From IMG/VR virus record IMGVR_UViG_2526164634_000009: a stretch of DNA of 42,795 nucleotides, one strand, 5' to 3'. Of this stretch, positions 6,063-42,795 are shown in pieces. The translations under genes were made by a program, and so were the position numbers. The notes under the pieces are model-generated. The model did no database searches. It saw only the letters and a list, made by a program, of their open reading frames with translations, and was not told the origin of the DNA. Each line of letters opens with the position of its first letter. Within the stretch, counting starts at the first letter, position 1. This DNA comes from a virus (lineage: Duplodnaviria > Heunggongvirae > Uroviricota > Caudoviricetes).

Positions 6063-6843
6063 TAATCACCTCAATACTGACACCACCGGGAACAAACAAC
6101 GGGTTGCTGATACCGTTCCTGCGGGCCAGCCGTTGCCAGTTCCGGCTGTTTCCTGTGTAACGGTACAGGGCCACCATTGCAGGCATCGTCTCCGGCAGGC
6201 GGTGCGTTTCACTGCCCGCCAGTTGCAGCCCGCGTTTTTCCAGGTCGGCAACAACCAGCAGACGCAGTTGCGTAAGCTGAACGCTGTCTGTCGAAAAGCC
6301 CTGCTCAGATGCCGTCAGAATGACGGTATCCAGTGCAGCCCCCAGCATGGCGGCTGTTTTTCCGATATCGGACACACTTTCAAATACCGGGGGCGTGGCT
6401 GTACCACTGTCTGAAAAGGATACCTGTGAAAAACCGCCGTCCGGGGTTATGGCAGTTAACTGTAACTGTCCCTGTGTGACGGTAGCGGATGTGCTGCTGG
6501 CCCCGATGGCTGTGCCGGTTGTGGTGGACGGGGCATCCAGTACAGGTGCACGGGCGGCATTATCCATCCGGCGACTGAAATCCAGTGCCGCAGTCAGTGC
6601 CTGGCTGGCAGCTTCTGCCCGGTATGTCTGCGCCGCTGCCAGCATGACGTAGTTCAGTGTGGCAATATTTTTTTCTGCAACCGGACTGTTGTACGAGGTT
6701 GTGATTGTCCCCTGTCTGCCTGCGGTGGCAGCATGGCGACGTTCGAATCGCTGCGCCAGACGGTTCCATGTGGAAAATGCTGTCCGGGTATCGCATAACG
6801 ATGAAAGTAAGCGTGCAGCAAGAACCGTATTGACGGGGATGTG

Positions 6844-8382: not shown

Positions 8383-8430
8383 ACCGGGTATATTACCAGG
8401 CTCATTCAGCGTCGACCAGGATAAAGAGGC

Positions 8431-8778
8431 TTACAACATAGTCAGGGACGTAAGCAGTCTTTTAGGCTGCCGCCAGTCGATACCTTCCAGCAGCATCGCC
8501 AGCTGTGCCGGTGTGAGGAACACTTTGCCATCCCGGGCTGACGGCCAGGCGAAGCGGCCGCGCTCCAGCCGTTTGGTCAGCAGACACAGTCCATCGCCGG
8601 TAGACCAGAGGAGCTTTACCTGACTGCCATTACGCCCACGGAAGATAAAAACGTGACCTGACATCGGATCGTCTTTCAGCGTCGTCTGCACCTTTGCCGC
8701 CAGGCCGTTGAAGCCGTTTCTCATATCGGTGATGCCAGCGACCAGCCAGATCTTTGTCCCTGATGGTAATGGGATCAA
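8431..8778 (-). CDS. tnpB: IS66-family accessory protein TnpB (Orf2)
   Basis: 115 aa, MIPLPSGTKIWLVAGITDMRNGFNGLAAKV motif typical of IS66 Orf2. Confidence 0.9.
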   Translation of the reverse strand: MIPLPSGTKIWLVAGITDMRNGFNGLAAKVQTTLKDDPMSGHVFIFRGRNGSQVKLLWSTGDGLCLLTKRLERGRFAWPSARDGKVFLTPAQLAMLLEGIDWRQPKRLLTSLTML

Positions 8779-9179
8779 CGTTTGAGCTCCCGTATCAGCA
8801 GGTTCAGGATATTTTCGCTGATGGCACCATTCAGACGGAGTGATCCGTGCCGGAACGTCACTTCACAGCTGATATTGAGTGATTCAGGTGTCGCAGCAGC
8901 TACAGGTTGTGACCGGGGGGAGGTTGTAGGGACAACATCTTCGGCATCAAGTGTTATCGGGAGCAGCTCAGGCACGTTGTTTTCTGTTGTTGAAGGAGGA
9001 CGTAGTTTTCCTTCGCGCCAGTACTGGCGCCACTTGAACAGCAAATTATCGTTGATCCCATGCTCACGAGCGAGTTGCGCTACGGAGATCTCTGGTCGAT
9101 GCGAGAGTTCAACCATTTTGATTTTGAACTCAACGGGATAATTAGGGCTTTTTTTACGCACTGCGGTTAATGATTTCAT
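8775..9179 (-). CDS. tnpA: IS66-family accessory protein TnpA (Orf1), HTH
   Basis: 134 aa, overlaps tnpB start by 4 nt as in IS66 elements. Confidence 0.85.
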   Translation of the reverse strand: MKSLTAVRKKSPNYPVEFKIKMVELSHRPEISVAQLAREHGINDNLLFKWRQYWREGKLRPPSTTENNVPELLPITLDAEDVVPTTSPRSQPVAAATPESLNISCEVTFRHGSLRLNGAISENILNLLIRELKR

Positions 9180-10008
9180 GGATAGCGTCCACCATATTTG
9201 GTGTCCACTATTCTCTCAGGAATTTCAGGATCTGCCAGACGGTGCTGAGACGACGCTTACCGATGAAACGCCGGACAGCGCCCCCATCAGCGAGGAGGCC
9301 AGCATGGCAGGCTGGTTAATCAGGCTGGTCACAGAGCCTTTCATCGCAGAAAGCGATCCCATCAGACCGCTGACAGTCTGCGTAACCCCCAGATTGTCCA
9401 CCGCATCACTGATATCATCGATGACACCGGTTACAGCTTCCATCACGGCGGTTGCCGCCGCAGTGCCATCTTTTACGGTCTGCCAGACAGAGGACAGCGT
9501 ATCTCCCAGAGAACCGGTTACAGCAACGGCCTGTGCCGGTACGGCTGCACTGGTGTCTGTCTCTGCGTCCGGGGCAGTATCCTGCAACGACGGATAAACG
9601 GTAACGGTGAACGCGTAATAATTCAGTTCATCCGCTTTAGTGCGGCATTCCCATGAATCCACCATGACGTCCACAGTGCCGAAATCAGGATGTACCAGCT
9701 CACCGCTACCCGGAGCATCAAGAGCATCCATCAGCGCACCCGCTTCATCTCTGGCTGTTTCTGCGTTGCTGTTCAGAATGCAGGCGCTGAATGTACGGGA
9801 GCGAAGCTTTTTCCCCAGGTCATTGACGCCGCCGGTATCACGTAACGGGTACTCGCGTTTAACCAGGCGACGTCCGCCAGCCTGTTTTTGCTCCTCGATG
9901 ACGAGAAACGGCACGTTACGGAACGTGCCTTTGCCGGTTGTTTTCCTGCCTCCACCGGTTTTATCCCGGACAGCATTAACGACATTTAAAGCATCTTCAA
10001 ACATGGTT

Positions 10009-24986: not shown

Positions 24987-25233
24987 GATGTTCTGTCTCG
25001 TCTGCCAGCCGCGCGGCACGATTTGCGGCACGGATAGCGGAAAATACCTGCATCGTCTGTTCCTGACCGTGTAACAACCATTCAGCCGTGTTGCGGGCCT
25101 GTTGCTCCGTCTGTAATTCACGGCGCAGCGTCTGGTTATCGTGGCGGGTGCTGTCCAGCCTGTGCCACAACACCCCGGACAAAACGGCGGCAAACACGGC
25201 TGCCAGCAGTAAACTTTTACTGGCGAAGGTCAT
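24847..25233 (-). CDS. Inner-membrane spanin (i-spanin, Rz-like)
   Basis: 128 aa, N-terminal TM helix then charged coiled-coil periplasmic domain; immediately after endolysin. Confidence 0.6.
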   Translation of the reverse strand: MTFASKSLLLAAVFAAVLSGVLWHRLDSTRHDNQTLRRELQTEQQARNTAEWLLHGQEQTMQVFSAIRAANRAARLADETEHHDAKQKITTAITGDNCSTRPVPAVAADRLRELEKRTRAIGGDPARN

Positions 25234-25735
25234 CCGCCCCCCTGATATTCCAGATAGCCATTTCCACTTCGCGACGGTTCATCAGTCCTTTCCATTTATG
25301 GCCTGCGGCAAACACCCAGCGGGCCATCTGGTCACGCGCTCCGGCGTAATCACCGGCATTGAGTTTTTTCAGCAGCGTTGATTTACTGAATGCGGTAACA
25401 CCGGTGTTGAAAATAAACGTTGCCAGCGCCGTTTTCTGATATGGCGTCAGCGGCACCCTGACAAGACGATCGATTGCCGCATAAACCGGTTTTAAATCAC
25501 TGTCGAGGAGAGCCATACACTCCGCATGGCTGTAACGGCGCATTTCGATATCCGGCCCGGTATGCCCCACACAGACCGAAAGCACACCGCCAATATCGCG
25601 GTAAGGCATATAAGCGATATTTTCCAGGTGGATCAGAGACTGACGGGTCATTTCCTGATAACCACCCACACCGCCACCGGCAATCGTTACAGCCAGCAGT
25701 GTGGCTTTCAGTTTTTTTGGTATCCCCGCCATCAT
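25217..25735 (-). CDS. lys: SAR endolysin (phage lysozyme family; Mu lys-like)
   Basis: 172 aa, N-terminal weakly hydrophobic Gly/Ala-rich signal-anchor-release segment, downstream of C. Confidence 0.8.
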   Translation of the reverse strand: MMAGIPKKLKATLLAVTIAGGGVGGYQEMTRQSLIHLENIAYMPYRDIGGVLSVCVGHTGPDIEMRRYSHAECMALLDSDLKPVYAAIDRLVRVPLTPYQKTALATFIFNTGVTAFSKSTLLKKLNAGDYAGARDQMARWVFAAGHKWKGLMNRREVEMAIWNIRGADDLRQ

Positions 25736-25807: not shown

Positions 25808-25830
25808 ATAACCGGCAGGATGCCGGTTAT
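25808..25830. terminator. Perfect 10-bp palindrome ATAACCGGCA-GGA-TGCCGGTTAT overlapping the end of gene C
   Basis: Stem-loop with T-run on plus strand; role (middle-transcript terminator vs regulatory dyad) not resolvable. Confidence 0.35.
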
Positions 25831-26249
25831 TTTGGGCTTTCAGGTGAGAACAGATCAGGCTGATGACGTCGTGTATGCAGCTTTCTCTGGCGGGCAATAA
25901 TCTGGTAGATCTGCGGCTGGGACAGGCGGTACTGGCGACGCAGTTCTTCCATGTTACGACCATTAAACTGGCAGTAAAGCAAATCGTCGCGTAACGCGGT
26001 CAGGATCGTATCGCCGCAGGGGATGTAAAACTGCCGTCCACCCAGAAAACAGGACAGGGCAACGGCCTGTTTACGGGCAAGTTCACGGGGATTGCTGACG
26101 TTCTGGCGTTTCAGTTCGTTTTCCAGAACATCAATCAGATCAACCACCGAACGGGGCCAGCGTGATTCCAGTTCCGGGGCCGGGATGTTATCAATATGTC
26201 CGATTAACTGGCGAATTGCCGGATCGTGTTCAAATAAATCATGCTGCAT
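25827..26249 (-). CDS. C: Late transcription activator C (Mor/C family)
   Basis: 140 aa; close paralogue of the Mor-like ORF at 27228-27617 with shared C-terminal HTH region. Confidence 0.85.
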   Translation of the reverse strand: MQHDLFEHDPAIRQLIGHIDNIPAPELESRWPRSVVDLIDVLENELKRQNVSNPRELARKQAVALSCFLGGRQFYIPCGDTILTALRDDLLYCQFNGRNMEELRRQYRLSQPQIYQIIARQRKLHTRRHQPDLFSPESPK

Positions 26250-26261
26250 ATTTTCCCCCGG

Positions 26262-26381
26262 TTAACAGACAAAAAGATACACCACGGCACTGATGGTTAT
26301 CAGAACCACAAGGGCAATCACTTTTATCGCATTAATCAGCGTGGACGGCCCGAAACATTCATCACTGAATTTTCTGTACAC
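26262..26381 (-). CDS. Candidate small hydrophobic peptide (GTG start, about 39 aa)
   Basis: Open frame with AAGGA upstream, ending in hydrophobic stretch LINAIKVIALVVLITISAVVYLFVC; below ORF-track size cut-off. Confidence 0.25.
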   Translation of the reverse strand: MYRKFSDECFGPSTLINAIKVIALVVLITISAVVYLFVC

Positions 26382-26592
26382 AATATTTTTCCTTATAACG
26401 TTGACAGTGGTGAAGAATTTCCGGCATATCAACTGACTGCCAGCCTTTCATGTAATAACTGCCGTGGGTGCCATCGTGCCCTGTGTAATCCATTGGCTTT
26501 GGTGGTGGGCCTCCGGCCTCCCGATGTAATACCTCCTGTCGTAAACGTTCACGCCTGCCGAACTGAAAGGACGCATCCCACCCTTTACCCAT
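26362..26592 (-). CDS. Hypothetical 76-aa protein translationally coupled to GH108 gene
   Basis: ATG at 26592 overlaps GH108 stop (ATGGGTAA arrangement). Confidence 0.3.
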   Translation of the reverse strand: MGKGWDASFQFGRRERLRQEVLHREAGGPPPKPMDYTGHDGTHGSYYMKGWQSVDMPEILHHCQRYKEKYCVQKIQ

Positions 26593-27145
26593 GCAGAACC
26601 TCCCGACAGGCGCTGGCGAGCAGATCCAGACGGTTAAACCAGCCATTCAGATATTTCCCCTGCGAGGCACTGGATTTGATAATCCCTGCGTAATAGCGGG
26701 AACGACGCAGGAAGCACTGCAACAGCAGCCAGTCAGTATCGGCACGCAGAACGGCTGCGCGTGTGTTTTTACCGACGATGCCATCATCATCAACACCTGC
26801 TGCCGCCTGGAGGATCTGAATCGCGCGTTTAACACCGTGCTGAACGGCAGCATCAAAAACGAATAAGGAAACGCCATCAGGCCATTCGTTACACTTTGCC
26901 GCCAGCCAGTAATCACGCCAGTAGATCTGCGCCGCCTGCTCGCGGGTTAAATCCTTAATGCGGGTATCAGGTTTTCCGTCACCGTTAACATCGGTTTTGC
27001 CATCAATAACGCCGTCGCGACGGTCAGAAATACCGTATTTCGTTTCGCCGCCACGGTCGGCAGGATCATTAACATAGCCACCTTCAACATCAGGGCGTAT
27101 AACGAAATTCAGCGAATGAAGGAATGCAGGGGAAAACTCAGGCAT
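26585..27145 (-). CDS. Glycoside hydrolase family 108-like muramidase with C-terminal peptidoglycan-binding domain
   Basis: N-terminal EGGYVNDPADRGGETKYGI motif characteristic of GH108; strong RBS AGGAGGG; first gene after terminator that follows mor. Confidence 0.65.
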   Translation of the reverse strand: MPEFSPAFLHSLNFVIRPDVEGGYVNDPADRGGETKYGISDRRDGVIDGKTDVNGDGKPDTRIKDLTREQAAQIYWRDYWLAAKCNEWPDGVSLFVFDAAVQHGVKRAIQILQAAAGVDDDGIVGKNTRAAVLRADTDWLLLQCFLRRSRYYAGIIKSSASQGKYLNGWFNRLDLLASACREVLHG

Positions 27146-27204
27146 GTTGCCCTCCTGTCATGAACGTTTTATCGTCACAACAGAATATTGAGGGCGTAAA
27201 AAAA

Positions 27205-27221
27205 GCCGGATTAACCGGCTT
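27205..27221 (-). terminator. Rho-independent terminator after mor (AGCCGG-ATTAA-CCGGCT followed by T7 on the minus strand)
   Basis: 6-bp GC stem plus seven T immediately after the stem on the transcribed strand. Confidence 0.6.
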
Positions 27222-27227
27222 TACTGT

Positions 27228-27617
27228 TTAAAACAAAGGGGGGGAACACTGACGATACTTTATACGCCGCATTCGTCGGATGGCTTTATAGACTGTGTTA
27301 AATGTCACACCATGACGGATTGCCAGTTCGTGAACATTGCGACCGTTGAAATCATTCCAGATACGCAAATCCCGAATAAGCGAATCCAGAACCTGACCGC
27401 GTGGAATGTAGACCTGACCGCCGCCCAGATGCTTACAGATAGCCACAACAATCTCCAGTGAATGGGCCGGGTCAACACCTAACCGGGACAATTCCCCGCG
27501 CAGTAAATCGTTCAGCTCCGCCAGCAGTGCCGGAAAGCGTGACGTATCCTCTGCGGGATTGTCAAGATGTGCCAGGATGGTGTCATCCTGCAAATCACCA
27601 AATAAATCTTCCGTCAT
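27228..27617 (-). CDS. mor: Middle operon regulator Mor
   Basis: 129 aa, same family as C, position after GemA. Confidence 0.85.
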   Translation of the reverse strand: MTEDLFGDLQDDTILAHLDNPAEDTSRFPALLAELNDLLRGELSRLGVDPAHSLEIVVAICKHLGGGQVYIPRGQVLDSLIRDLRIWNDFNGRNVHELAIRHGVTFNTVYKAIRRMRRIKYRQCSPPLF

Positions 27618-28165
27618 TGTGCCATCCTCCGTGTCTTTCTGGCACGGGCATAAGCCGCCGTCATGGCATCATAGCCGCGCAGTTCACGCCCGGACGGACT
27701 GACTGGCAACGGAAGCCCGTGACGGGAAAAGGCTTCACGAATACAGCGGATATGCCACTGCTTGAGAGTTTCGAGAACAATCAACAGGGTGTCGCCATGA
27801 CACCACGCCAGCGTGGAAACACCCTGTCCGCCATTACGTTTCGCCGTCAGGCGCTGAACATATTTATCCAGCGCCACATCACCGCCATCGGTAATAAAAC
27901 CGTCTTCTGCCATCTGCTGCCAGACTTTGTATACCTTCTCGCGGGGCGTGACATGCCCCTTAAAGCGGCGACGTGGATGTTTATTCAGCTTCTTAAAGCC
28001 GCGTTCTTTCATGGCATCGAGCACCTGTTCCAGTTGCGTAACCGTCAGCTCGCGGCAACTGATTTTGCCCGTTTTCTGCATCAGAAAAGCGCGGTAAGTG
28101 TCGTCGTCGAGTTGTAGCTCCCGACGGGCGACATGGATTAATTTAATCAGGGATGTGCGATTCAT
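27614..28165 (-). CDS. gemA: GemA-like regulatory protein
   Basis: 183 aa, GGAGG RBS, precedes mor with 4-nt overlap. Confidence 0.75.
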   Translation of the reverse strand: MNRTSLIKLIHVARRELQLDDDTYRAFLMQKTGKISCRELTVTQLEQVLDAMKERGFKKLNKHPRRRFKGHVTPREKVYKVWQQMAEDGFITDGGDVALDKYVQRLTAKRNGGQGVSTLAWCHGDTLLIVLETLKQWHIRCIREAFSRHGLPLPVSPSGRELRGYDAMTAAYARARKTRRMAQ

Positions 28166-31220: not shown

Positions 31221-31640
31221 TCAGTACAGCAGAGGCTCGCGCAGTGATGCCGGAATATGCCGCAGCGATAACTGAACCGCTTTCAGGGCAAGCGAGGAAT
31301 AACAGCAGCGCGCCCAGCCTTTTGCCATTAACCGGTAATCGCGCCAGATACGCTGCCACATTTCACGGGCTTCAGGGTCTGATGCGCAGATGTATTCCCG
31401 GTCCATGACGTACTCCCATAAATCCACGTTGAACGCACCGCCAAATGCAATGGCGCGGGATATGCTTTCGCCGCAATAACGTGCACAGATGCTGTAATGG
31501 TCGAAAGCAATCAGGTAAGTCTTTTCACCACAATCATCAACTTTCCGGGCGCAAATAAACTCGCGTAATTCACCACCGTTGTTATTGCGTTCCTGAATTC
31601 GGATTAATGCCTGAATTTCATTTCGGATTTTGACGTTCAT
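31221..31640 (-). CDS. Hypothetical early protein (Cys-rich)
   Basis: 139-aa ORF. Confidence 0.5.
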   Translation of the reverse strand: MNVKIRNEIQALIRIQERNNNGGELREFICARKVDDCGEKTYLIAFDHYSICARYCGESISRAIAFGGAFNVDLWEYVMDREYICASDPEAREMWQRIWRDYRLMAKGWARCCYSSLALKAVQLSLRHIPASLREPLLY

Positions 31641-31660
31641 TGTCAGCGTTCCTTTGCGAA

Positions 31661-31930
31661 TTAATGTTTAACCGCATTCACCGGATGTGGTACTAAATCA
31701 CATTCAGCTTCCATACCCACTTTCTTCATAGTGGTCAGCATCTCATCTTTGGCCTTTTTAATAATTTCAGGAGCCATAGTCAGGACGATATTTGCCAGTA
31801 AATCATGAGGCCCGATATTTTCCGTTGGCGAGATATCTGCAAGACATGCTTTTGCATCCAGAACTTCTCTGCGCCCATTGCAACCGTCACTACTTTCCAG
31901 CCATGTAAACTCAAAGATAACTTTTGCCAT
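31661..31930 (-). CDS. Hypothetical early protein
   Basis: 89-aa ORF. Confidence 0.5.
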   Translation of the reverse strand: MAKVIFEFTWLESSDGCNGRREVLDAKACLADISPTENIGPHDLLANIVLTMAPEIIKKAKDEMLTTMKKVGMEAECDLVPHPVNAVKH

Positions 31931-32168
31931 TTTGCGTCTCCTTATTGATTCTGAATAACTGCGCTGGCTTTTACCTTCGCGCCTTTTACCTGCTTAAAGA
32001 AAACCGCGCTGCACCACGGACAACATGCAAAGGAGTCCCATACTTCATTTTCTGGTGAGCATTGCGTCATAATTTGCTCTTTGCATTTGGGGCAATTAAA
32101 TGCAGTCAGAGCCACATTGTTATTCTGTACCCGTTTAACCCATTCAATATATTTTTCAGCTTTAGTAC

Positions 32169-33225
32169 GGCTTTGTTGAATAAATCAGATTTCGGGTAAG
32201 TCTCCCCCGTAGCGGGTTGTGTTTTCAGGCAATACGCACGCTTTCAGGCATACCTGCTTTCGTCATTTTGTTCAGCGCTCGTACCAGGGCCATAGCCTCT
32301 GCAACCTGACCATCGTAGTCACGCAGTGTCAGTGAACCTCCGAACAGCTGTTTTACCCGGTACATCGCCGTTTCCGCTATCGAGCGACGGTTGTAATCTG
32401 TTGTCCATTTCCACCGCGCATTACTCCCGGTCATTCGCTGATTAGCCACTGCACGGTTACGGTCTGCATATTCACCGGGCCAGTAACCCGCACCTTTTCG
32501 GGGAGGGATAAGGGCGCTGATTTTCTTACGCCGCAGTTCATCGTGACAGAGCCGGGTGTCGTAAGCGCCGTCTGCCGATGCTGCCCTGATTTTTCTGTGA
32601 GTCTGCCGGATAAGACCCGGGAAGGCTTCTGAGTCCGTTACGTTGTTCAGCGACAGGTCTGCACAGATGATTTCATGTGTGTTGCTGTCAACGGCCAGAT
32701 GCAACTTCCGCCAGATACGACGGCGTTCTTTGCCGTGTTTTTTGACTTTCCATTCGCCTTCACCAAAGACCTTCAGCCCGGTGGAATCAATCACCAGATG
32801 CGCGATTTCACCTCGGGTGAACGTTTTGAAACTGACATTAACCGACTTTGCGCGCTTGCTGACACTGGTGTAATCCGGGCAGCGCAACGGAACATTTATC
32901 AGTGTAAAAATGGAATCAATAAAACCCTGTGCAGCCCGCAGGGTCAGCCTGAACACGCGTTTAATGACCAGAACGGTGGTGATGGCGAGATCAGAATAGC
33001 GCTGAGGTCTTCCCCGTGATGAAGGCGTTGCCGACTCATACCAGGCCTGAATAGCTTCATCATCCAGCCAGAAAGTTATGGAGCCACGGTTGATGAGGGC
33101 TTTATTGTAGGTGGGCCAGTTGGTGATTTTGAACTTTTGCTTTGCCACGGAACGGTCTGCGTTGTCGGGAAGATACGTGATCTGATCCTTCAACTCAGCA
33201 AAAGTTCGATTTATTCAACAAAGCC
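32169..33225 (-). mobile_element. IS903-like element (IS5 family), 1057 bp, 9-bp target duplication CTTTAGTAC at 32160-32168 and 33226-33234
   Basis: Perfect 18-bp terminal inverted repeats GGCTTTGTTGAATAAATC, single transposase ORF, identical 9-bp flanking repeats. Confidence 0.9.
32225..33193 (-). CDS. tnp: IS903-type transposase (DDE); true start may be internal
   Basis: ORF contains FKITNWPTYNKALINRGSITFWLDDEAIQAWY region that I recognise as IS903 transposase. Confidence 0.9.
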   Translation of the reverse strand: MKDQITYLPDNADRSVAKQKFKITNWPTYNKALINRGSITFWLDDEAIQAWYESATPSSRGRPQRYSDLAITTVLVIKRVFRLTLRAAQGFIDSIFTLINVPLRCPDYTSVSKRAKSVNVSFKTFTRGEIAHLVIDSTGLKVFGEGEWKVKKHGKERRRIWRKLHLAVDSNTHEIICADLSLNNVTDSEAFPGLIRQTHRKIRAASADGAYDTRLCHDELRRKKISALIPPRKGAGYWPGEYADRNRAVANQRMTGSNARWKWTTDYNRRSIAETAMYRVKQLFGGSLTLRDYDGQVAEAMALVRALNKMTKAGMPESVRIA

Positions 33226-33240
33226 CTTTAGTACACATCG

Positions 33241-36973: not shown

Positions 36974-37519
36974 ATGGATAAGCTGAAAGGAAAGTCACTT
37001 TCTTTGCCGGAAGTGACAAAAGAAAGTATCCCGGAGCGTTTGAGAGAATTAATTGGAAAAAGAAGTGTAAGGGCTGCTGCGAAAGATTGGGGGTTGTCTT
37101 TTTCTACTTTAAACAATTACCTGACGCGAGGTACTGAACCTTCACTCAGTGTGGCTCGGCAGATAGCTGCAATTGAAGGGGTTACTATCGAATGGATATG
37201 TGGATCACATGATGATTCATATGAGAATCACCCAATTTCAACTAACACGCATAATGAGAATACAAAACTCATTATGAACATCATTAACGCCTTGGATGCA
37301 AAGGATATTGAGCGACTATCTAAGACTCTTGCCCTCAATGGTGCTAAGTATCTGACTCAAATGTTGGAACCCGAAAATCAAGGCTTACTGCGTCTTGAAG
37401 GACGAAAACGTGTCGCCGCGCTGCTATTAGATGATTTACCTGATGAGCGTATCAGAGAGATTTTGGAAGAAATTGAGAGCAGCAAACTCTCAAGTAGTGT
37501 AAAATCGAGAGCGGGCTAG
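36974..37519 (+). CDS. c: Prophage repressor (c-like, HTH)
   Basis: 181 aa, divergent from ner, HTH-like segment near N-terminus. Confidence 0.7.
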   Translation: MDKLKGKSLSLPEVTKESIPERLRELIGKRSVRAAAKDWGLSFSTLNNYLTRGTEPSLSVARQIAAIEGVTIEWICGSHDDSYENHPISTNTHNENTKLIMNIINALDAKDIERLSKTLALNGAKYLTQMLEPENQGLLRLEGRKRVAALLLDDLPDERIREILEEIESSKLSSSVKSRAG

Positions 37520-37745: not shown

Positions 37746-38077
37746 CCTCTCTATACGACTATGAGGAGAAATTGCTTATTGCCAGATGGGAACTGACAGC
37801 AGAACAGGCTGTTACACAGCAGTTAAAAAATGAGGTGTCAAAAGGAAAACTGATTGACACCGGGTTCTGTATTTTTGCCCTCAGTAAGCTGGCAATGGCG
37901 TTATCCAGTACGCTTGATTCCATCCCTTTATCCATGCAGCGACAGTTTCCTGATTTAACACCGCGCCATCTTGACCATCTGAAAACCATTATTGCGAAGG
38001 GGGCAAATCAGTGTGCGCGGGCAGGGGATAAATTACCGGATTTACTCGATGAATATATCAGAGCAACAACTGAATAA
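37742..38077 (+). pseudogene. nu1: Lambda-like terminase small subunit nu1, 3' fragment only (truncated by Mu-like prophage insertion)
   Basis: Frame opens only at 37742 after in-frame TAA; translated C-terminal part resembles lambda Nu1 C-terminus and overlaps A start as in lambda. Confidence 0.7.
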
Positions 38078-39977
38078 TATGATGGCTGCCGTTTCGGTTG
38101 CGCTGCAGCCTCTGGTCAGGGTTGTACCAATGACGGCAGTTGAATGGGCTGATCAAAATTATTATCTGCCTAAAGAATCTTCATATGGTGAGGGAGAATG
38201 GAAAACGCTGCCATTCCAGATCGCCATTATGAACTGTATGGGTAACGACCAGGTTCGCACGGTTAACCTGATTAAATCTGCCCGTGTTGGCTATACAAAG
38301 ATGTTGCTGGGGGTGGTCGGGTATTTTATTGAGCATAAATCCCGAAACAGTCTGCTTTTTCAGCCCACGGATTCTGCCGCTGAAGATTTTATGAAGTCTC
38401 ACGTGGAGGCGACGATTCGGAACGTGCCATGCCTGAAAGACCTTTCCCCATGGCTGGGTCGTAAACATCGTGACAATACTCTCACGCTGAAACGCTTTTC
38501 ATCGGGCGTCGGTTTCTGGTGCCTGGGCGGCGCTGCCGCCAAAAACTACCGTGAAAAATCCGTGGACGTGGTCTGCTATGACGAACTTTCCTCGTTCGAG
38601 CCGGATGTCGAAAAAGAGGGCTCGCCAACCCTGCTGGGGGATAAGCGTATTGAGGGGTCGGTGTGGCCAAAATCCATTCGCGGCTCGACGCCTAAAATCA
38701 AAGGCACCTGCCAGATCGAAAAAGCCGCTAACGAGTCGGCGCATTTTATGCGTTTTTATGTGCCCTGCCCGCACTGTGGGGAGGAGCAGTATCTGAAATT
38801 TGGCGATGAGTCCACGCCTTTTGGGCTTAAATGGGAGAAGGACAGCCCTGAAAGTGTTTTCTACCTCTGTGAACATCATGGCTGCGTGATCCATCAGTCT
38901 GAGCTTGACCAGAGCAACGGGCGGTGGATCTGTGAAAACACGGGCATGTGGACCCGTGACGGTCTGACGTTTTTCAGCGCCCGGGGTGATGAAATTCCGC
39001 CGCCGCGCTCCATCATGTTCCATATCTGGACGGCGTACAGTCCGTTCACCACCTGGGTACAGATTGTCTATGACTGGCTGGATGCACTGAAAGATCCCAA
39101 CGGCCTGAAAACCTTTGTGAACACCACGCTGGGCGAGACCTGGGAAGAGGCCGTGGGCGAAAAACTCGATCACCAGGTACTGATGGATAAGGTGGTGCGT
39201 TACACGGCGGCGGTGCCTGCCCGGGTGGTTTATCTGACGGCGGGCATTGACTCGCAGCGAAACCGTTTTGAGATGTATGTCTGGGGATGGGCTCCGGGAG
39301 AGGAAGCCTTTCTGGTGGATAAAATCATCATTATGGGGCGTCCTGATGAGGAAGAGACGCTGTTACGTGTGGATGCGGCGATCAACAAAAAATACCGCCA
39401 TGCGGATGGCACCGAAATGACTATTTCCCGTGTCTGCTGGGACACCGGGGGGATCGATGGTGAAATTGTTTATCAGAGATCAAAAAAACACGGTGTTTTC
39501 CGGGTGCTGCCGGTAAAAGGCGCATCTGTCTATGGCAAGCCGGTGATCACCATGCCAAAAACCCGCAATCAGCGGGGCGTGTATCTGTGTGAAGTGGGAA
39601 CGGATACCGCAAAAGAAATTCTCTATGCCCGTATGAAAGCCGATCCCACGCCTGCGGATGAAGCCACGTCGTATGCCATCCGTTTTCCTGATGATCCGGA
39701 GATTTTTTCGCAGACAGAGGCGCAGCAACTGGTGGCGGAAGAGCTGGTGGAGAAGTGGGAAAAAGGAAAGATGCGTCTGCTGTGGGATAACAAAAAGCGG
39801 CGTAACGAAGCGCTGGACTGCCTGGTGTATGCCTACGCGGCATTACGTGTGTCCGTGCAACGCTGGCAGCTTGATCTGGCTGTACTGGCAAAATCCCGGG
39901 AAGAAGAGACGACCCGGCCAACCCTGAAAGAACTGGCAGCGAAGCTGTCCGGAGGAGTGAATGGTTACAGTCGCTGA
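38049..39977 (+). CDS. A: Lambda-like terminase large subunit gpA
   Basis: Start at MNISEQQ (38049); conserved terminase blocks including VGYTKMLLGV, GDKRIEGSVWPKSIRGSTPK, WTAYSPFTTWVQIV. Confidence 0.9.
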   Translation: MNISEQQLNNMMAAVSVALQPLVRVVPMTAVEWADQNYYLPKESSYGEGEWKTLPFQIAIMNCMGNDQVRTVNLIKSARVGYTKMLLGVVGYFIEHKSRNSLLFQPTDSAAEDFMKSHVEATIRNVPCLKDLSPWLGRKHRDNTLTLKRFSSGVGFWCLGGAAAKNYREKSVDVVCYDELSSFEPDVEKEGSPTLLGDKRIEGSVWPKSIRGSTPKIKGTCQIEKAANESAHFMRFYVPCPHCGEEQYLKFGDESTPFGLKWEKDSPESVFYLCEHHGCVIHQSELDQSNGRWICENTGMWTRDGLTFFSARGDEIPPPRSIMFHIWTAYSPFTTWVQIVYDWLDALKDPNGLKTFVNTTLGETWEEAVGEKLDHQVLMDKVVRYTAAVPARVVYLTAGIDSQRNRFEMYVWGWAPGEEAFLVDKIIIMGRPDEEETLLRVDAAINKKYRHADGTEMTISRVCWDTGGIDGEIVYQRSKKHGVFRVLPVKGASVYGKPVITMPKTRNQRGVYLCEVGTDTAKEILYARMKADPTPADEATSYAIRFPDDPEIFSQTEAQQLVAEELVEKWEKGKMRLLWDNKKRRNEALDCLVYAYAALRVSVQRWQLDLAVLAKSREEETTRPTLKELAAKLSGGVNGYSR

Positions 39978-40167
39978 ACTGCAGGCGCTGCGTCAGGCGC
40001 GCCTTGATTTATTAACCGGTAAACGGGTGGTGTCTGTCCAGAAAGATGGTCGCAGAATTGAATATACGGCGGCTTCTCTGGATGAGCTTAACCGGGCGAT
40101 CAATGATGCGGAGTCGGTACTGGGGACAACCCGACGTCGCCGTCGTCCGCTGGGAGTGAGGTTATGA
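39961..40167 (+). CDS. W: Head-tail joining protein gpW
   Basis: 68 aa, between A and B. Confidence 0.8.
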   Translation: MVTVAELQALRQARLDLLTGKRVVSVQKDGRRIEYTAASLDELNRAINDAESVLGTTRRRRRPLGVRL

Positions 40168-41756
40168 AACGAACGCCTGTCCTGATTGATGTGAACGGCG
40201 TTCCGCTTCGTGAGAGTCTCAGCTACAACGGGGGCGGCGCAGGATTTGGCGGGCAAATGGCGGAGTGGTTGCCACCGGCGCAGAGTGTCGATGCGGCCCT
40301 GCTGCCCGCGTTGCGTCTGGGGAATGCCCGGGCAGATGATCTGGTGCGCAATAACGGGATAGCGGCCAATGCGGTGGCCCTGCATAAGGATCATATTGTC
40401 GGGCATATGTTTCTGATCAGCTACCGTCCGAACTGGCGCTGGCTGGAGATGCGGGAGACTGCGGCAAAAAGTTTTGTCGATGAGGTGGAGGCGGCCTGGT
40501 CGGAATACGCCGAAGGGATGTCTGGCGAGATCGACGTGGAAGAGAAACGCACGTTTACGGAATTTATTCGTGAAGGTGTGGGCGTTCATGCGTTTAACGG
40601 CGAAATCTTTGTGCAGCCGGTCTGGGATACGGAGAGCACGCAACTGTTTCGTACGCGTTTTAAAGCCGTGAGTCCGAAACGGGTGGACACGCCAGGACAC
40701 GGTATGGGGAACCGTTTTCTGCGGGCCGGTGTGGAGGTCGATCGATATGGCCGTGCCGTTGCGTACCATATCTGTGAGGATGATTTTCCTCGCTCCGGGA
40801 GTGGACGATGGGAACGGATCCCGCGTGAACTTCCCACCGGGCGTCCGGCCATGCTGCATATTTTCGAGCCGGTGGAGGACGGGCAGACCCGTGGGGCTAA
40901 TCAGTTTTACAGCGTCATGGAACGGCTGAAGATGCTGGATTCCCTGCAGGCAACACAGCTTCAGTCGGCCATTGTGAAAGCCATGTATGCAGCGACGATT
41001 GAAAGTGAACTTGATACCGAAAAGGCCTTTGAATATATCGCCGGCGCGCCACAGGAGCAGAAGGATAATCCGCTTATTAATATTCTGGAGAAGTTCTCCA
41101 GCTGGTATGACACGAATAACGTGACACTGGGCGGTGTCAAAATTCCGCACCTTTTCCCTGGTGATGATCTGAAACTACAGACTGCGCAGGATTCAGACAA
41201 TGGATTTTCTGCGCTTGAACAGGCGCTGCTGCGGTATATCGCCGCCGGTCTTGGCGTTTCCTACGAACAGTTGTCCCGTGATTACTCGAAGGTCAGTTAT
41301 TCAAGTGCCAGGGCCTCTGCCAATGAGTCGTGGCGCTATTTTATGGGGCGGCGAAAATTTATTGCGGCCCGGCTGGCCACGCAGATGTTTTCCTGCTGGC
41401 TGGAAGAGGCACTTCTTCGGGGGATTATCCGTCCGCCACGGGCGCGTTTTGATTTTTATCAGGCGCGATCAGCCTGGTCACGGGCAGAGTGGATTGGTGC
41501 CGGAAGAATGGCCATTGACGGGCTCAAGGAGGTTCAGGAATCGGTGATGCGCATTGAGGCCGGACTGAGCACGTATGAGAAAGAGCTGGCGCTGATGGGC
41601 GAGGATTATCAGGACATTTTCCGCCAGCAGGTCAGGGAATCTGCAGAGCGGCAAAAAGCCGGACTCTCACGTCCGGTGTGGATAGCGCAGGCGTATCAGC
41701 AGCAGATAGCGGAGAGTCGCAGGCCGGAAGAGGAGACAACACCACGTGAGACGTAA
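40164..41756 (+). CDS. B: Lambda-like portal protein gpB
   Basis: 530 aa. Confidence 0.9.
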   Translation: MKRTPVLIDVNGVPLRESLSYNGGGAGFGGQMAEWLPPAQSVDAALLPALRLGNARADDLVRNNGIAANAVALHKDHIVGHMFLISYRPNWRWLEMRETAAKSFVDEVEAAWSEYAEGMSGEIDVEEKRTFTEFIREGVGVHAFNGEIFVQPVWDTESTQLFRTRFKAVSPKRVDTPGHGMGNRFLRAGVEVDRYGRAVAYHICEDDFPRSGSGRWERIPRELPTGRPAMLHIFEPVEDGQTRGANQFYSVMERLKMLDSLQATQLQSAIVKAMYAATIESELDTEKAFEYIAGAPQEQKDNPLINILEKFSSWYDTNNVTLGGVKIPHLFPGDDLKLQTAQDSDNGFSALEQALLRYIAAGLGVSYEQLSRDYSKVSYSSARASANESWRYFMGRRKFIAARLATQMFSCWLEEALLRGIIRPPRARFDFYQARSAWSRAEWIGAGRMAIDGLKEVQESVMRIEAGLSTYEKELALMGEDYQDIFRQQVRESAERQKAGLSRPVWIAQAYQQQIAESRRPEEETTPRET

Positions 41757-42795
41757 TCTTTCACACATTATTGCCGCAGCATTCAATGAACCGCTGCTTC
41801 TGGAGCCCGCCTATGCGCGGGTTTTCTTTTGCGCGCTCGGGCGCGAGATGGGGGCAGCAAGTCTTTCGGTACCACAACAGCAGGTACAGTTTGATGCTCC
41901 CCGGAATGCTGGCTGAAACGGACGAGTACATGGCCGGAGGTAAACGACCGGCCCGTGTTTACAGGGTGGTGAACGGTATTGCTGTACTGCCGGTGACCGG
42001 CACGCTGGTGCACCGGCTGGGGGGTATGCGGCCATTTTCCGGAATGACAGGCTATGACGGTATTGTCGCCTGTCTTCAGCAGGCAATGGCGGATAGCCAG
42101 GTGCGGGGCGTACTGCTGGACATTGACAGTCCGGGCGGGCAGGCCGCCGGCGCGTTTGACTGCGCTGACATGATTTACCGCCTCCGTCAGCAGAAGCCGG
42201 TCTGGGCACTGTGCAATGACACGGCCTGTTCTGCAGCCATGCTGCTGGCGTCGGCCTGCTCCCGACGGCTGGTTACCCAGACATCCCGTATCGGCTCCAT
42301 TGGCGTGATGATGAGCCATGTCAGCTATGCCGGTCATCTGGCGCAGGCCGGTGTGGATATCACGCTGATTTACTCAGGGGCGCACAAGGTGGATGGCAAT
42401 CAGTTTGAAGCCTTACCGGCAGAGGTTCGCCAGGACATGCAGCAGCGCATTGATGCGGCGCGCCGGATGTTTGCCGAAAAAGTGGCCATGTTTACCGGTC
42501 TGTCTGTTGATGCCGTCACGGGAACAGAGGCCGCCGTTTTTGAAGGTCAGTCCGGCATTGATGCCGGGCTGGCGGATGAATTAGTCAATGCGTCGGATGC
42601 CATCAGTGTGATGGCCACGGCGCTGAACAGTAATGTCAGAGGAGGCACTATGCCGCAATTAACTGCAACGGAAGCCGCCGCGCAGGAGAACCAGCGAGTG
42701 ATGGGGATCCTGACATGCCAGGAAGCGAAAGGACGTGAACAGCTTGCCACGATGCTGGCAGGACAACAGGGCATGAGCGTTGAACAGGCCCGGGC
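41746..42795 (+). CDS. C: Lambda-like head protease/scaffold gpC, 3' end outside window; apparent +1 frame change near 41880-41915
   Basis: N-terminal 56 codons (VRRNLSHIIAAAFNEPLLLEPAYARVFFCAL...) stop at TGA 41914-41916; remainder (RVVNGIAVLPVTGTLV... to window end) is in the +1 frame. Confidence 0.6.

What the first reader, a model, noticed from the sequence alone, without database searches (positions are those of the whole stretch)
26262..27221. GH108-type muramidase as first gene of the Mor-dependent middle operon, ahead of C
A strong terminator follows mor (27205-27221). The next gene, with an AGGAGGG RBS, encodes a protein carrying the GH108 EGGYxNDPxDxGGxTKYGI signature plus a peptidoglycan-binding-like C-terminus. 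It is followed by a translationally coupled 76-aa ORF and a possible 39-aa hydrophobic peptide before C. The phage also has a separate SAR endolysin, so a second wall hydrolase expressed before late genes is unexplained; it could act in superinfection, cell-wall remodelling or ejection. I cannot confirm from memory whether Mu itself carries this gene.
Basis: partly seen in the sequence, partly recalled or inferred. Interest (0 to 1): 0.5.

Follow-up and report, generated by a model that had tools for sequence, protein, structure and literature searches.

The report
Retained GH108 endolysin in Mu-like prophage
A Mu-like prophage carries an intact cell-wall-cutting enzyme (GH108 muramidase) as the first gene behind the Mor-dependent promoter; phage Mu lacks this gene, but in a sister lineage of Mu-like phages it is the only recognisable lysis enzyme, so it is a known kind of gene kept in an unusual place.

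Summary
Window 26585-27145 (- strand) encodes a 186-aa protein with both GH108 (PF05838, E 9e-25) and PG_binding_3 (PF09374, E 7e-14). It keeps the catalytic Glu (E21), has a GH108-type predicted fold and has no signal or membrane segment. It lies directly downstream of a middle promoter (Pm) conserved with Mu and ahead of homologs of Mu gp18, gp20 and C.

Mu and SfMu do not carry this gene. In about 45 sampled Mu-like prophages or phages of Enterobacterales, and in Vibrio Mu-like phages, the order is Mor, GH108, gp18-like, then a 202-aa holin-like protein. These lack C and lack a GH24 lysozyme. There GH108 is the only lysin I could find.

I conclude the gene is the endolysin of an ancestral (or anciently exchanged) Mor-driven lysis cassette. 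This phage keeps it beside Mu's C-dependent SAR-endolysin/spanin cassette, but without the holin-like partner. Strong purifying selection (dN/dS about 0.03) argues that it still works. How a cytoplasmic muramidase reaches the wall in a holin-less phage is unresolved.

RefSeq already annotates identical copies as GH108. This is a new member of a known kind, of moderate interest.

The parts
27228..27617 (-). mor (129 aa), Mor-family activator of the middle promoter
   Evidence: PF08765 E 1.4e-29. About 90% nt identity to the Mu mor region.
27202..27222 (-). Hairpin plus U-run: the early-transcript terminator. It overlaps the Mor-binding region of Pm.
   Evidence: RNA fold -12.2 kcal/mol, z -2.9. 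The same sequence is annotated as a terminator inside the Pm feature in AF083977. It is conserved about 75-80 nt upstream of GH108 in all sampled lineages.
27210..27225 (-). Inferred Mor-binding dyad AGTAA-AGCCGG-TTAAT (positions -51 to -36 of Pm)
   Evidence: This is my own mapping of the published description: two 5-bp inverted repeats, a G/C-rich 6-bp spacer, centre at -43.5, spanning -51 to -36 (PMC4390567, PMC4287176). I placed it on sequence that is identical in Mu and the window. The papers' figures were not readable.
27182..27187 (-). Inferred Pm -10 hexamer TATTCT (Mu has TATCCT). The predicted +1 is near 27174.
   Evidence: The spacing from the dyad is the same as in Mu. This is an inference and was not mapped experimentally.
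27150..27156 (-). Ribosome-binding site AGGAGGG of the GH108 gene
   Evidence: Read directly from the sequence.
26585..27145 (-). GH108/PG_binding_3 muramidase gene, 186 aa. The protein is soluble, with no signal or SAR segment.
   Evidence: Pfam, PHROG endolysin, PDB relatives, AF2 model with Foldseek, hydropathy maximum 0.93, dN/dS 0.02-0.05.
27083..27085 (-). Codon of the catalytic Glu (E21) in the EGGY motif
   Evidence: E21 is invariant in 28 homologs. It corresponds to TtsA Glu14, and T35 to TtsA Thr28 (PMC6996933; alignment).
26834..27088 (-). GH108 catalytic domain (aa 20-104). It includes a clade-specific acidic insert, D41-D60.
26627..26827 (-). PG_binding_3 domain (aa 107-173)
26362..26592 (-). 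gp18 homolog (76 aa), translationally coupled to GH108 through the overlap ATGGGTAA. Function unknown.
   Evidence: 83% identical to Mu gp18 and 73% to the type-A gp18. It always lies directly after GH108 where GH108 is present. phrog_2121.
26262..26381 (-). gp20 homolog (39 aa, one C-terminal transmembrane segment, GTG start)
   Evidence: One residue differs from Mu gp20. Hydropathy 2.96. phrog_19823.
25827..26249 (-). C, the late-gene activator (140 aa)
   Evidence: PF08765 E 9e-34. 99% identical to Mu C.
25217..25735 (-). GH24 SAR endolysin (Mu gp22 homolog): the phage's second muramidase, in the C-dependent late operon
   Evidence: PF00959 E 4e-36. 98% identical to Mu Lys.

Best explanation
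The ORF encodes a soluble, cytoplasmic GH108 N-acetylmuramidase with a C-terminal PG_binding_3 domain.

It is the conserved first gene of the Mor-activated operon in a broad group of Mu-like phages. In the sister lineage ('type A': E. coli PSS-15-like, Klebsiella, Serratia, Pluralibacter and Vibrio phages) it is followed by gp18, a multi-TM protein and a 202-aa protein that resembles a GTA-type 3-TM holin. Those phages have no C and no GH24 lysozyme. There the module is the lysis cassette and GH108 is the endolysin.

Mu-type phages carry a second Mor-family activator (C) and a C-dependent SAR-GH24/spanin/releasin cassette. The 5' part of the old cassette therefore remains as 'middle' genes. 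Mu kept only gp18-gp19-gp20 and SfMu only gp18-gp20. This window's phage kept GH108-gp18-gp20.

Shown by sequence:
- the family, the catalytic residues and the predicted fold;
- the conserved promoter;
- the synteny across lineages;
- purifying selection on the gene.

Inferred:
- The gene is transcribed from Pm once Mor is made.
- The enzyme accumulates in the cytoplasm.
- Because this phage has no holin-like gene, the enzyme reaches the murein only when the inner membrane is breached at lysis. It would then act as an accessory second muramidase alongside the SAR endolysin.
For: - Family: Pfam, PHROG, PDB and Foldseek assignments agree.
- Catalytic residues: E21 and T35 are invariant.
- Localisation: there is no hydrophobic segment.
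- Junctions: the Pm dyad, spacer and -10 are identical or nearly so to Mu up to about position -5. Homology resumes exactly at the gp18 ATG, so 586 bp here stand where Mu and SfMu have 28 bp.
- Promoter element: the hairpin/dyad stays 75-80 nt upstream of GH108 even where 440-640 nt separate it from mor.
- Synteny over 69 fetched loci plus the window: about 45 type-A loci have Mor-GH108-gp18-...-p202-TraR-DUF2730 with no C or GH24. Of 24 Mu-type loci, 11 have GH108, always directly before gp18.
- The whole PSS-15 prophage has GH108 as its only annotated muralytic gene.
- Isolated Vibrio Mu-like phages show the same order at 43% (GH108), 36% (gp18) and 41% (p202) identity.
- p202 hits PF11351 GTA_holin_3TM in 4 of 8 members, best E 8e-5.
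- Selection: within Mu-type phages dN/dS is 0.02-0.05. Examples are 23 synonymous against 2 nonsynonymous changes, and 13 against 0. All 12 copies are intact at 186 aa.
- Composition: GC is 0.529 against 0.528 for the prophage, so there is no sign of recent import.
- Phylogeny: Mu-type GH108 is one clade, sister to the E. coli type-A clade.
- Viability: vB_YpM_5 and vB_YpM_6 carry an identical protein and form plaques.
Against: - No holin-like gene exists in this phage. Only the gp20, gp23 and gp25 homologs have TM segments. Mu gp19, gp20 and gp25 fail the holin test, and Mu is considered holin-less (PMC9239132).
- A cytoplasmic enzyme therefore has no demonstrated route to the wall before the cell bursts, and a benefit that arrives only after bursting is hard to picture.
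- vB_YpM_3 and vB_YpM_23 lack the gene and also plaque, so it is dispensable.
- The holin assignment of p202 is below Pfam's gathering score.
- Loss in Mu versus old gain in the window lineage cannot be separated with these data.
- This particular prophage carries an IS5/IS903-type element in the early operon upstream of mor, and an IS66-family element in a tail gene. Here the gene may never be expressed.
- No expression or activity data exist.
Confidence: 0.6

Rival explanations
1. The enzyme is exported without a canonical holin and acts before or independently of the SAR endolysin. It would cross the inner membrane by an unrecognised route (gp18/gp20 or a host factor). It would then nick or remodel murein from the middle phase onward, or serve as the real endolysin. 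This would resemble TtsA, a signal-less GH108-type muramidase whose holin is still unidentified.
For: - TtsA lacks a signal sequence and its holin is unidentified (PMC13284979).
- The fold resembles TtsA, Sen1395 and SagA.
- SE11-type Mu-like prophages keep GH108 while their GH24 has Ala at the catalytic Glu, a diverged C-terminus and no Rz/Rz1 hit. GH108 may be the working lysin there, without p202.
- Purifying selection is strong in the holin-less background.
- gp18 is always coupled to GH108.
Against: - Mu gp19 and gp20 show no holin behaviour.
- Unregulated early export of an active muramidase would risk premature lysis.
- Identity to TtsA is only about 20-24%.
- The NCBIfam 'holin-associated N-acetylmuramidase' model scores 71 bits against a cutoff of 240.
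- SE11-type prophages may simply be defective.
Confidence: 0.17
2. The gene is a functionless leftover or hitchhiker of modular recombination in the variable mor-C interval, tolerated because it stays harmlessly in the cytoplasm.
For: - It is dispensable. Mu, SfMu and vB_YpM_3/_23 lack it and are viable.
- Its holin-like partner is missing.
- The interval is mosaic, with four gene combinations seen.
Against: - dN/dS is 0.02-0.05 over dS up to 0.2.
- All 12 Mu-type copies are full length with catalytic residues kept.
- A strong RBS and translational coupling to gp18 are retained.
Confidence: 0.12
3. One reading: a wall hydrolase used for superinfection, for ejection (virion-associated lysin) or for cell-wall remodelling unrelated to lysis.
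For: Only the fact that it is a second muramidase under an earlier promoter.
Against: - It is not in or next to the structural module, and it is not fused to any tail or head domain.
- It has no export signal.
- Its orthologs sit at the head of lysis-type cassettes with a holin-like gene.
- Most phage homologs are annotated as endolysins.
- Pm is silent in a repressed lysogen (established Mu biology), so the gene cannot serve the lysogen.
Confidence: 0.04
4. A recent moron insertion from an unrelated phage, rather than a retained or exchanged Mu-family gene.
For: Against Mu and SfMu, the gene looks like a clean 586-bp insertion between Pm and gp18.
Against: - GC and GC3 equal the prophage average.
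- The nearest relatives are all Mu-like prophage genes in the same position.
- Mu-type copies form their own clade with dS about 1.3-1.5 to the nearest type-A clade.
Confidence: 0.05

Closest known systems
Lysis module of 'type-A' Mu-like prophages and phages (E. coli PSS-15 prophage NZ_AP027709 497-530 kb; Klebsiella phage Kp4866-3 OK490420; Vibrio phages such as MG592669)
   Same: The GH108 is orthologous (74% identity in E. coli, 43% in Vibrio). It is the first gene after the same hairpin/Mor-type element and is followed at once by a gp18 homolog.
   Different: Type A continues with a multi-TM protein and the 202-aa holin-like protein, then TraR and DUF2730. It has one Mor-family activator, no C and no GH24. 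Except in the Vibrio homolog, which ends at about the same point as the window protein, type-A GH108 also has about 10 extra C-terminal residues that the window type lacks.
Phage Mu middle operon (Pm - gp18 - gp19 - gp20 - C)
   Same: It shares the promoter architecture, gp18 (83%), gp20 (one residue differs) and C (99%).
   Different: Mu has no GH108 and has the 4-TM gp19, which is absent here. In Mu only C is essential, and genes 19 and 20 can be inactivated without affecting lysis (Mathee & Howe 1993 as cited in PMC9239132).
GH108/PG_binding_3 phage endolysins (family founded on coliphage N4 gp61, from my own knowledge; e.g. Acinetobacter ElyA1/ElyA2, PMC7188820; Bordetella BPP-1)
   Same: The two-domain architecture and the EGGY catalytic motif are the same, and phage homologs are annotated as endolysins.
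   Different: Those enzymes sit in late lysis cassettes next to holins. This one is behind a middle promoter, has no holin, and is accompanied by a second endolysin of another family.
TtsA / Sen1395 (Salmonella type 10 secretion muramidases; PDB 6v40, 6v3z)
   Same: The fold is the same (Foldseek probability about 1.0, TM 0.53-0.58). The Glu...Thr catalytic positions match, there is no signal sequence and no adjacent holin.
   Different: Identity is only 20-24%. TtsA is chromosomal, PhoP-regulated and non-lytic, and it is specific for LD-crosslinked polar murein. Here the context is a phage lytic operon.
Brucella SagA (7dnp) and Neisseria NMB1012 (2ikb/2is5)
   Same: These are the best solved-structure relatives (phmmer E 1e-20 to 2e-17; TM 0.63-0.72).
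   Different: They are cellular or prophage-derived proteins with other or unknown roles, and they lack the D41-D60 acidic insert.
Mu gp22 SAR endolysin with gp25 releasin
   Same: It has the same target and sits in the same phage.
   Different: It belongs to a different family (GH24). It is exported by Sec as a membrane-tethered SAR enzyme, is C-dependent and late, and is released by gp25 (PMC9239132).

Membership tests
GH108 (Pfam PF05838 Glyco_hydro_108) | Profile match above the curated threshold | tested here: met
   87.4 bits against a cutoff of 21.2, E 9.3e-25, profile positions 7-85 of 85.
GH108 (Pfam PF05838 Glyco_hydro_108) | Catalytic Glu in the EGGY motif, with the downstream Thr of the lysozyme-like triad (TtsA Glu14/Asp19/Thr28) | tested here: met
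   E21 and T35 are invariant in 28 homologs. The position equivalent to TtsA Asp19 is N26, as in Sen1395 and NMB1012. The Sen1395 catalytic domain is functional in a chimera (PMC6996933).
GH108 (Pfam PF05838 Glyco_hydro_108) | Fold like solved family members | tested here: met
   The AF2 model has pLDDT 82.5. Top Foldseek PDB hits are SagA, NMB1012, PG_0293, Sen1395 and TtsA, with probability about 1.0 and TMq 0.53-0.72. The catalytic flap (residues 25-47) is modelled with low confidence.
GH108 (Pfam PF05838 Glyco_hydro_108) | N-acetylmuramidase activity on murein | not testable with these tools
   This needs purified protein and muropeptide analysis.
PG_binding_3 (PF09374) | Profile match above the curated threshold, C-terminal to GH108 | tested here: met
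   52.3 bits against a cutoff of 24.6, residues 107-173.
Canonical holin-dependent endolysin | Soluble enzyme without a signal or SAR segment | tested here: met
   The maximum 19-residue hydropathy is 0.93, below the 1.6 threshold, so there is no TM segment.
Canonical holin-dependent endolysin | A cognate holin encoded in the same phage | tested here: not met
   There is no p202, p136 or gp19 homolog in the window. Only the gp20, gp23 and gp25 homologs have TM segments, and their Mu counterparts are not holins. In type-A relatives a holin-like gene is present, with only a weak PF11351 match.
Canonical holin-dependent endolysin | Expression from the late lysis operon | tested here: not met
   The gene lies behind Pm and upstream of C, and the late lysis operon starts after C. 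Timing is inferred from Mu and was not measured.
Mu middle operon (Mor-dependent Pm transcript) | Mor dyad centred about 43.5 bp upstream of +1, plus a -10 hexamer, directly upstream of the gene | tested here: met
   The dyad and spacer are identical to Mu and the -10 is TATTCT against TATCCT. The element is conserved upstream of GH108 in all lineages. The mapping of the published coordinates onto the sequence is my own.
Mu middle operon (Mor-dependent Pm transcript) | Mor-dependent transcription shown experimentally | not testable with these tools
   This needs 5'-RACE or RNA-seq with and without Mor.
TtsA-type (type 10 secretion) muramidase | Membership of the 'holin-associated N-acetylmuramidase' equivalog, or close similarity to TtsA | tested here: not met
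   NF040573 scores 71 bits against a cutoff of 240. Identity to TtsA and Sen1395 is 20-24%.
TtsA-type (type 10 secretion) muramidase | Genetic linkage to a secreted cargo, with non-lytic use | tested here: not met
   The neighbours are phage regulatory and lysis genes.
Virion-associated (ejection) lysin | Encoded in the structural module or fused to a tail or head protein | tested here: not met
   It is a stand-alone two-domain protein between mor and C. Virion proteomics was not available.

The most novel reading that the evidence does not exclude
GH108 with its obligate partner gp18 (and perhaps the 39-aa membrane peptide gp20) could be a holin-independent murein-opening module. The signal-less muramidase would reach the periplasm by an unrecognised route during the middle phase. 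It would pre-weaken the sacculus, or be the true lysin where GH24 is dead, as in SE11-type prophages. That would give a phage model for the unsolved question of how TtsA-type GH108 muramidases cross the inner membrane. It would also assign a function to Mu's orphan gene 18.
Probability: 0.12. Interest if true: 0.7.

Novelty: new member of a known kind. Interest (0 to 1): 0.33.

Why it matters
The enzyme itself is ordinary. GH108/PG_binding_3 proteins are established phage endolysins, and RefSeq already labels identical copies as 'glycoside hydrolase family 108 protein'.

What the comparison adds is an evolutionary reading of a paradigm phage:
- Mu's unexplained, non-essential middle genes 18-20 look like what is left of a Mor-driven GH108/holin-type lysis cassette. 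That cassette is still intact in a sister lineage about as common in E. coli genomes as Mu itself.
- Mu's holin-less SAR-endolysin/releasin system, together with the second activator C, appears to have been added downstream of it.

Nature provides four genotypes (with or without GH108, with or without gp19) in otherwise near-identical, cultivable phages. Examples are vB_YpM_5/_6 against vB_YpM_3/_23. One can therefore test directly whether a cytoplasmic endolysin contributes to lysis in a phage without a holin, and what gp18 does.

Tried and rejected
- **gp18 function.** Pfam and NCBIfam gave no hit. An exhaustive HMMER search of 1.84 billion representatives found only 25 small clusters, nearly all stand-alone proteins of 71-109 aa. 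An AF2 three-helix model (pLDDT 82) had no significant PDB fold match. The His/Cys pattern suggesting a Zn site is not kept in the Vibrio homolog.
- **A possible gp18-holin fusion.** phrog_2121 places gp18 at profile positions 3-75 and p202 at 91-273. I found no such fusion. The one long hit, P0147 (205 aa), is a gp18 N-terminus running into the overlapping frame of the multi-TM gene, most likely a frameshift.
- **Genome-contig scan with gp18.** It returned only 3 loci. The IMG/VR scan supplied the sample instead.
- **Consensus scanner.** It flagged neither the mor terminator nor Pm. This is expected for an activator-dependent promoter that lacks a -35.
- **Published Pm sequence.** I could not read it from figures. 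The dyad, -10 and +1 coordinates are my own mapping.
- **Literature.** Searches for GH108 in Mu-like phages found nothing. The vB_YpM paper does not mention the gene.
- **RcGTA parallel.** I could not confirm from the papers read that the RcGTA lysozyme rcc00555 is GH108, so I do not use that parallel.
- **Recent foreign import.** Rejected on composition and phylogeny.
- **Not run.** I did not run hhalign to test whether type-A p136 is homologous to Mu gp19. blastp found no link.
Full report
**1. The observation**

All genes of this Mu-like prophage run on the - strand of the window.
- gemA is 27614-28165 and mor is 27228-27617 (PF06252 and PF08765).
- Mor is followed by an 8-bp G+C-rich hairpin and a U-run at 27202-27222. 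Its RNA fold is -12.2 kcal/mol, z -2.9. The identical sequence in the Mu record AF083977 is annotated both as a TransTermHP terminator (9179-9200) and as part of the Mor-activated middle promoter Pm (9163-9233).
- An AGGAGGG ribosome-binding site (27150-27156) precedes a 186-aa ORF, 26585-27145, carrying EGGYVNDPADRGGETKYGI.
- That ORF's stop overlaps the ATG of a 76-aa ORF (26362-26592). A 39-aa hydrophobic ORF (26262-26381) follows, then C (25827-26249) and a GH24 lysozyme (25217-25735).

**2. What the protein is**

- Pfam gives Glyco_hydro_108 (E 9.3e-25, residues 20-104) and PG_binding_3 (E 6.8e-14, residues 107-173). Both are far above the curated cutoffs.
- PHROGs gives phrog_315 'endolysin' at E 1e-51.
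- The nearest solved relatives by sequence are Neisseria NMB1012 (E 1e-20), Brucella SagA (2e-17), P. gingivalis PG_0293 and, more weakly, Salmonella Sen1395 and TtsA.
- An AlphaFold model built on 28 homologs (pLDDT 82.5) retrieves exactly these structures with Foldseek, at TM 0.53-0.72 and probability about 1.0. The next hits are noise.
- TtsA's catalytic triad is Glu14/Asp19/Thr28 (PMC6996933). The equivalent E21 and T35 are invariant here. The middle position is N26, as in Sen1395 and NMB1012.
- There is no hydrophobic stretch (maximum hydropathy 0.93). The protein therefore has no signal peptide and no SAR anchor and should be cytoplasmic.
- NCBIfam's 'holin-associated N-acetylmuramidase' equivalog scores only 71 bits against a cutoff of 240. 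The protein is a relative of that subfamily, not a member.

**3. Is it standard Mu content?**

No.
- Megablast finds the whole mor-C interval only in Yersinia phages vB_YpM_5 and vB_YpM_6 (99% identity), where every gene is annotated 'hypothetical protein'.
- Mu, D108 and SfMu match on both sides but lack the GH108 gene.
- The junctions are sharp. Homology to Mu and SfMu runs through mor, the hairpin, the spacer and the -10 region, then stops. It resumes one base before the gp18 ATG. So 586 bp in the window stand where Mu and SfMu have 28 bp.
- The 76-aa ORF is the gp18 homolog: 83% to Mu gp18, with the SfMu-type C-terminus.
- The 39-aa ORF is gp20, one residue different from Mu gp20. Mu's 4-TM gp19 is absent, as in SfMu.

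**4. The promoter**

Published work places the Mor dyad at -51 to -36, centred at -43.5. It consists of two 5-bp inverted repeats separated by a G/C-rich hexamer, with a recognisable -10 and no -35 (PMC4390567, PMC4287176).
- The only sequence that fits is AGTAA-AGCCGG-TTAAT, with TATCCT as the -10. This mapping is mine, because the figures could not be read.
- In the window the dyad and spacer are identical and the -10 is TATTCT. That puts +1 near 27174 and gives a leader of about 29 nt containing the ribosome-binding site.
- The hairpin/dyad element is conserved 75-80 nt upstream of GH108 in every lineage examined. This holds even where an extra 440-640 nt lie between mor and the element. 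It therefore travels with GH108, as a promoter element would.

GH108 as 'first gene of the Mor-dependent operon' is thus well supported by sequence, though not by any transcript data.

**5. Comparative synteny: the key result**

I used gp18 as bait and fetched 3 loci from reference genomes and 64 from IMG/VR. I added two E. coli prophages and annotated all of them by tblastn with a reference panel. Two architectures appear.

*Type A* (about 45 loci, including E. coli, Pluralibacter, Kluyvera and Serratia):
- The order is GemA - Mor - GH108 - gp18 - multi-TM protein - 202-aa protein (p202) - TraR/DksA - DUF2730 - ... - terminase.
- There is no C and no GH24.
- The complete PSS-15 prophage is about 34 kb and runs from a MerR-family regulator gene next to the transposase genes at one end to com/mom. 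It has GH108 as its only annotated muralytic gene and a single Mor-family activator.
- p202 matches PF11351 'Holin of 3TMs, for gene-transfer release' below threshold, in 4 of 8 divergent members, best E 8e-5.
- Isolated Vibrio Mu-like phages have the same order: Mor, GH108 (43% identity), a gp18-like protein (36%), a p202-like protein (41%), TraR, DUF2730. Klebsiella phage Kp4866-3 carries a 72% homolog.

*Type B* (Mu-type, with C plus SAR-GH24) occurs in four versions:

| Version | Gene order after Mor | Loci |
|---|---|---|
| Mu | gp18-gp19-gp20 | 8 |
| SfMu | gp18-gp20 | 5 |
| Window type | GH108-gp18-gp20 | 7 plus the window |
| SE11 type | GH108-gp18-gp19-gp20 | 4 |

Wherever GH108 is present it lies directly before gp18.

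Counts in 5,426 complete E. coli genomes:
- The window-type gene occurs in 8, annotated by PGAP as 'glycoside hydrolase family 108 protein'.
- The Mu-type gp18-gp20-C block occurs in 44.
- The type-A GH108-gp18 block occurs in 48-58.

The protein database shows the clade across Enterobacterales, and some sources already name it 'Mu phage endolysin Lys'.

**6. Is the gene alive in the Mu-type background?**

- All 12 type-B copies are intact at 186 aa.
- Pairwise Nei-Gojobori counts within type B give, for example, 23 synonymous against 2 nonsynonymous changes (window against SE11 type) and 13 against 0 (window against L022). dN/dS is 0.02-0.05 at dS up to 0.2.
- Against type A, dN/dS is about 0.1-0.15 at saturated dS.
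- GC (0.529) equals the prophage mean (0.528).
- In a neighbour-joining tree rooted on the Vibrio homolog, type-B GH108 is a single clade. It is sister to the E. coli type-A clade and shares with it a two-residue insertion before EGGY.

This is a long-resident Mu-family gene under purifying selection. It is neither a recent import nor a decaying remnant.

**7. Best explanation**

In type-A phages the Mor-dependent operon begins with a lysis cassette (GH108 endolysin, gp18, membrane proteins including a holin-like protein) and continues into DUF2730 and the packaging genes. Mu-type genomes are colinear at both ends of that stretch. Between gp18-20 and DUF2730 (Mu gp25) they carry C, Plys, the SAR-GH24, the spanins and gp24. 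The 'middle operon' genes are then the 5' stump of the older cassette, and the window's phage still has its endolysin.

Whether Mu and SfMu lost GH108, or the window lineage regained it long ago by recombination through the conserved hairpin and gp18, cannot be decided from these data. The Mu leader does resemble a fusion of the two window junction flanks, but that is only suggestive.

The mechanism in this phage is inferred. Transcription would start from Pm once Mor is made, and active enzyme would accumulate in the cytoplasm. The enzyme would reach murein only when the inner membrane fails at lysis, acting as a second muramidase beside the SAR endolysin.

**8. The unresolved point**

- The window phage has no holin-like gene. 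Among its early, middle and lysis proteins only the homologs of gp20, gp23 and gp25 have TM segments.
- In Mu, gp19, gp20 and gp25 fail the DNP-triggering test for holins. Mu is considered holin-less, with gp25 acting as a releasin for the SAR endolysin (PMC9239132).
- A cytoplasmic endolysin under strong selection in such a phage is not fully explained by an 'accessory' role.

Two observations keep a more interesting reading open:
- TtsA, of the same fold, also lacks a signal, and its holin is still unidentified (PMC13284979).
- In SE11-type prophages the GH24 homolog has Ala at the catalytic Glu, a diverged and truncated C-terminus and no detectable spanins. GH108 is the only intact muramidase there, although those prophages may simply be defective.

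On the other side, vB_YpM_3 and vB_YpM_23 (no GH108) and vB_YpM_5 and vB_YpM_6 (with GH108) all plaque on Y. pestis (PMC10434027). The gene is therefore dispensable.

**9. Caveat for this particular prophage**

Compared with vB_YpM_5, the window has two insertion sequences:
- an IS66-family element at 6807-9260, with an 8-bp target duplication, inside the gene that follows the tape-measure gene;
- an IS5/IS903-type element at about 32168-33226, inside the early operon upstream of gam, gemA and mor.

The prophage is probably crippled, and mor (and hence GH108) may be poorly expressed here. The GH108 protein is identical to that of the viable phages.

**10. Verdict**

- The identification as a GH108 muramidase at the head of the Pm operon is supported.
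- The speculative roles (ejection, superinfection) are not supported.
- The gene is a known kind of enzyme, already correctly labelled in RefSeq, in a position explained by the modular history of Mu-like lysis regions.
- I found no paper describing this arrangement.
- Interest is moderate. It gives a concrete origin for Mu's orphan genes 18-20 and a ready natural system for asking whether, and how, a signal-less GH108 muramidase acts without a holin.

Noticed in passing
window 6807-9260 (target duplications 6799-6806 and 9261-9268): An IS66-family element with three ORFs: HTH_Tnp_1 at 8775-9179, TnpB_IS66 at 8431-8778 and DDE_Tnp_IS66 at 6844-8382, all on the - strand. It has terminal inverted repeats GTAAGCG.../...CGCTTAC and an 8-bp duplication CGATGAAA. 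It interrupts the homolog of vB_YpM_5 CDS 31414-32901, the gene after the tape-measure gene. The prophage's tail module is probably broken.
   Followed up: partly
window 32168-33226 (ORF 32225-33193, - strand): A 1.06-kb segment absent from vB_YpM_5 encodes an IS5/IS903-type DDE transposase (PF13737 plus PF01609). It sits inside the early operon upstream of gam, gemA and mor, so it may be polar on mor and therefore on the GH108 operon in this prophage.
   Followed up: partly
window about 37750-42795: Homology to Mu-like phages ends near 37750, just past the repressor-side end (HTH protein 36974-37519). Immediately beyond lie a lambda-family terminase large subunit (37992-39977, +) and portal (40164-41756, +). 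The Mu-like element appears to have transposed into or next to another prophage. The window starts inside the Mu-like tail-fibre region, so the other Mu end is not in the window.
   Followed up: partly
L004 5791-6219 (E. coli SE11 prophage); also L019, L020: In SE11-type Mu-like prophages the GH24 'lys' homolog is only 142 aa. It has Ala where Mu gp22 has the catalytic Glu, diverges after about residue 114, has a lipobox-like LAAC near its N-terminus, and is followed directly by DUF2730 with no Rz/Rz1 hit. GH108 is the only intact muramidase there.
   Followed up: partly
window 26362-26592 (gp18 homolog) and alignment A4: gp18 proteins of Enterobacterales conserve H23, H/C39, H43 and C63. The H/C swap at one position suggests a metal site. 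The Vibrio homolog does not keep this pattern. The AF2 model is a three-helix bundle with no PDB match. The precomputed label PF26867 is attached to all homologs in the big database, but the local Pfam copy gave no hit.
   Followed up: partly
window 26966-27025 (GH108 residues D41-D60): An acidic insert, DRRDGVIDGKTDVNGDGKPD, with an invariant D/G pattern is present in all Enterobacterales members. It is absent from the Vibrio, Neisseria and Brucella relatives. A similar DKDGDGDID insert exists in P. gingivalis PG_0293. It looks like a calcium-binding loop and is modelled with low confidence.
   Followed up: no
L073 (E. coli PSS-15, NZ_AP027709 497-530 kb) and about 45 IMG/VR loci: Complete Mu-like prophages exist with a single Mor-family activator and no C, yet with com/mom at the far end. 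In these phages one activator may drive everything that Mu splits into middle and late phases. Many have an extra 440-640 nt (one gene) between mor and the conserved hairpin.
   Followed up: partly
window 26585-26592 versus type-A loci (e.g. L005 6535-6566): The window-type GH108 lacks the last 10 or so residues of type-A enzymes. It ends in His-Gly-stop, read from the gp18 start region (ATGGGTAA). In L005, the one type-A locus checked at the junction, the stop lies just before the gp18 ATG. A small deletion fused the two genes into an overlapping, translationally coupled pair.
   Followed up: partly
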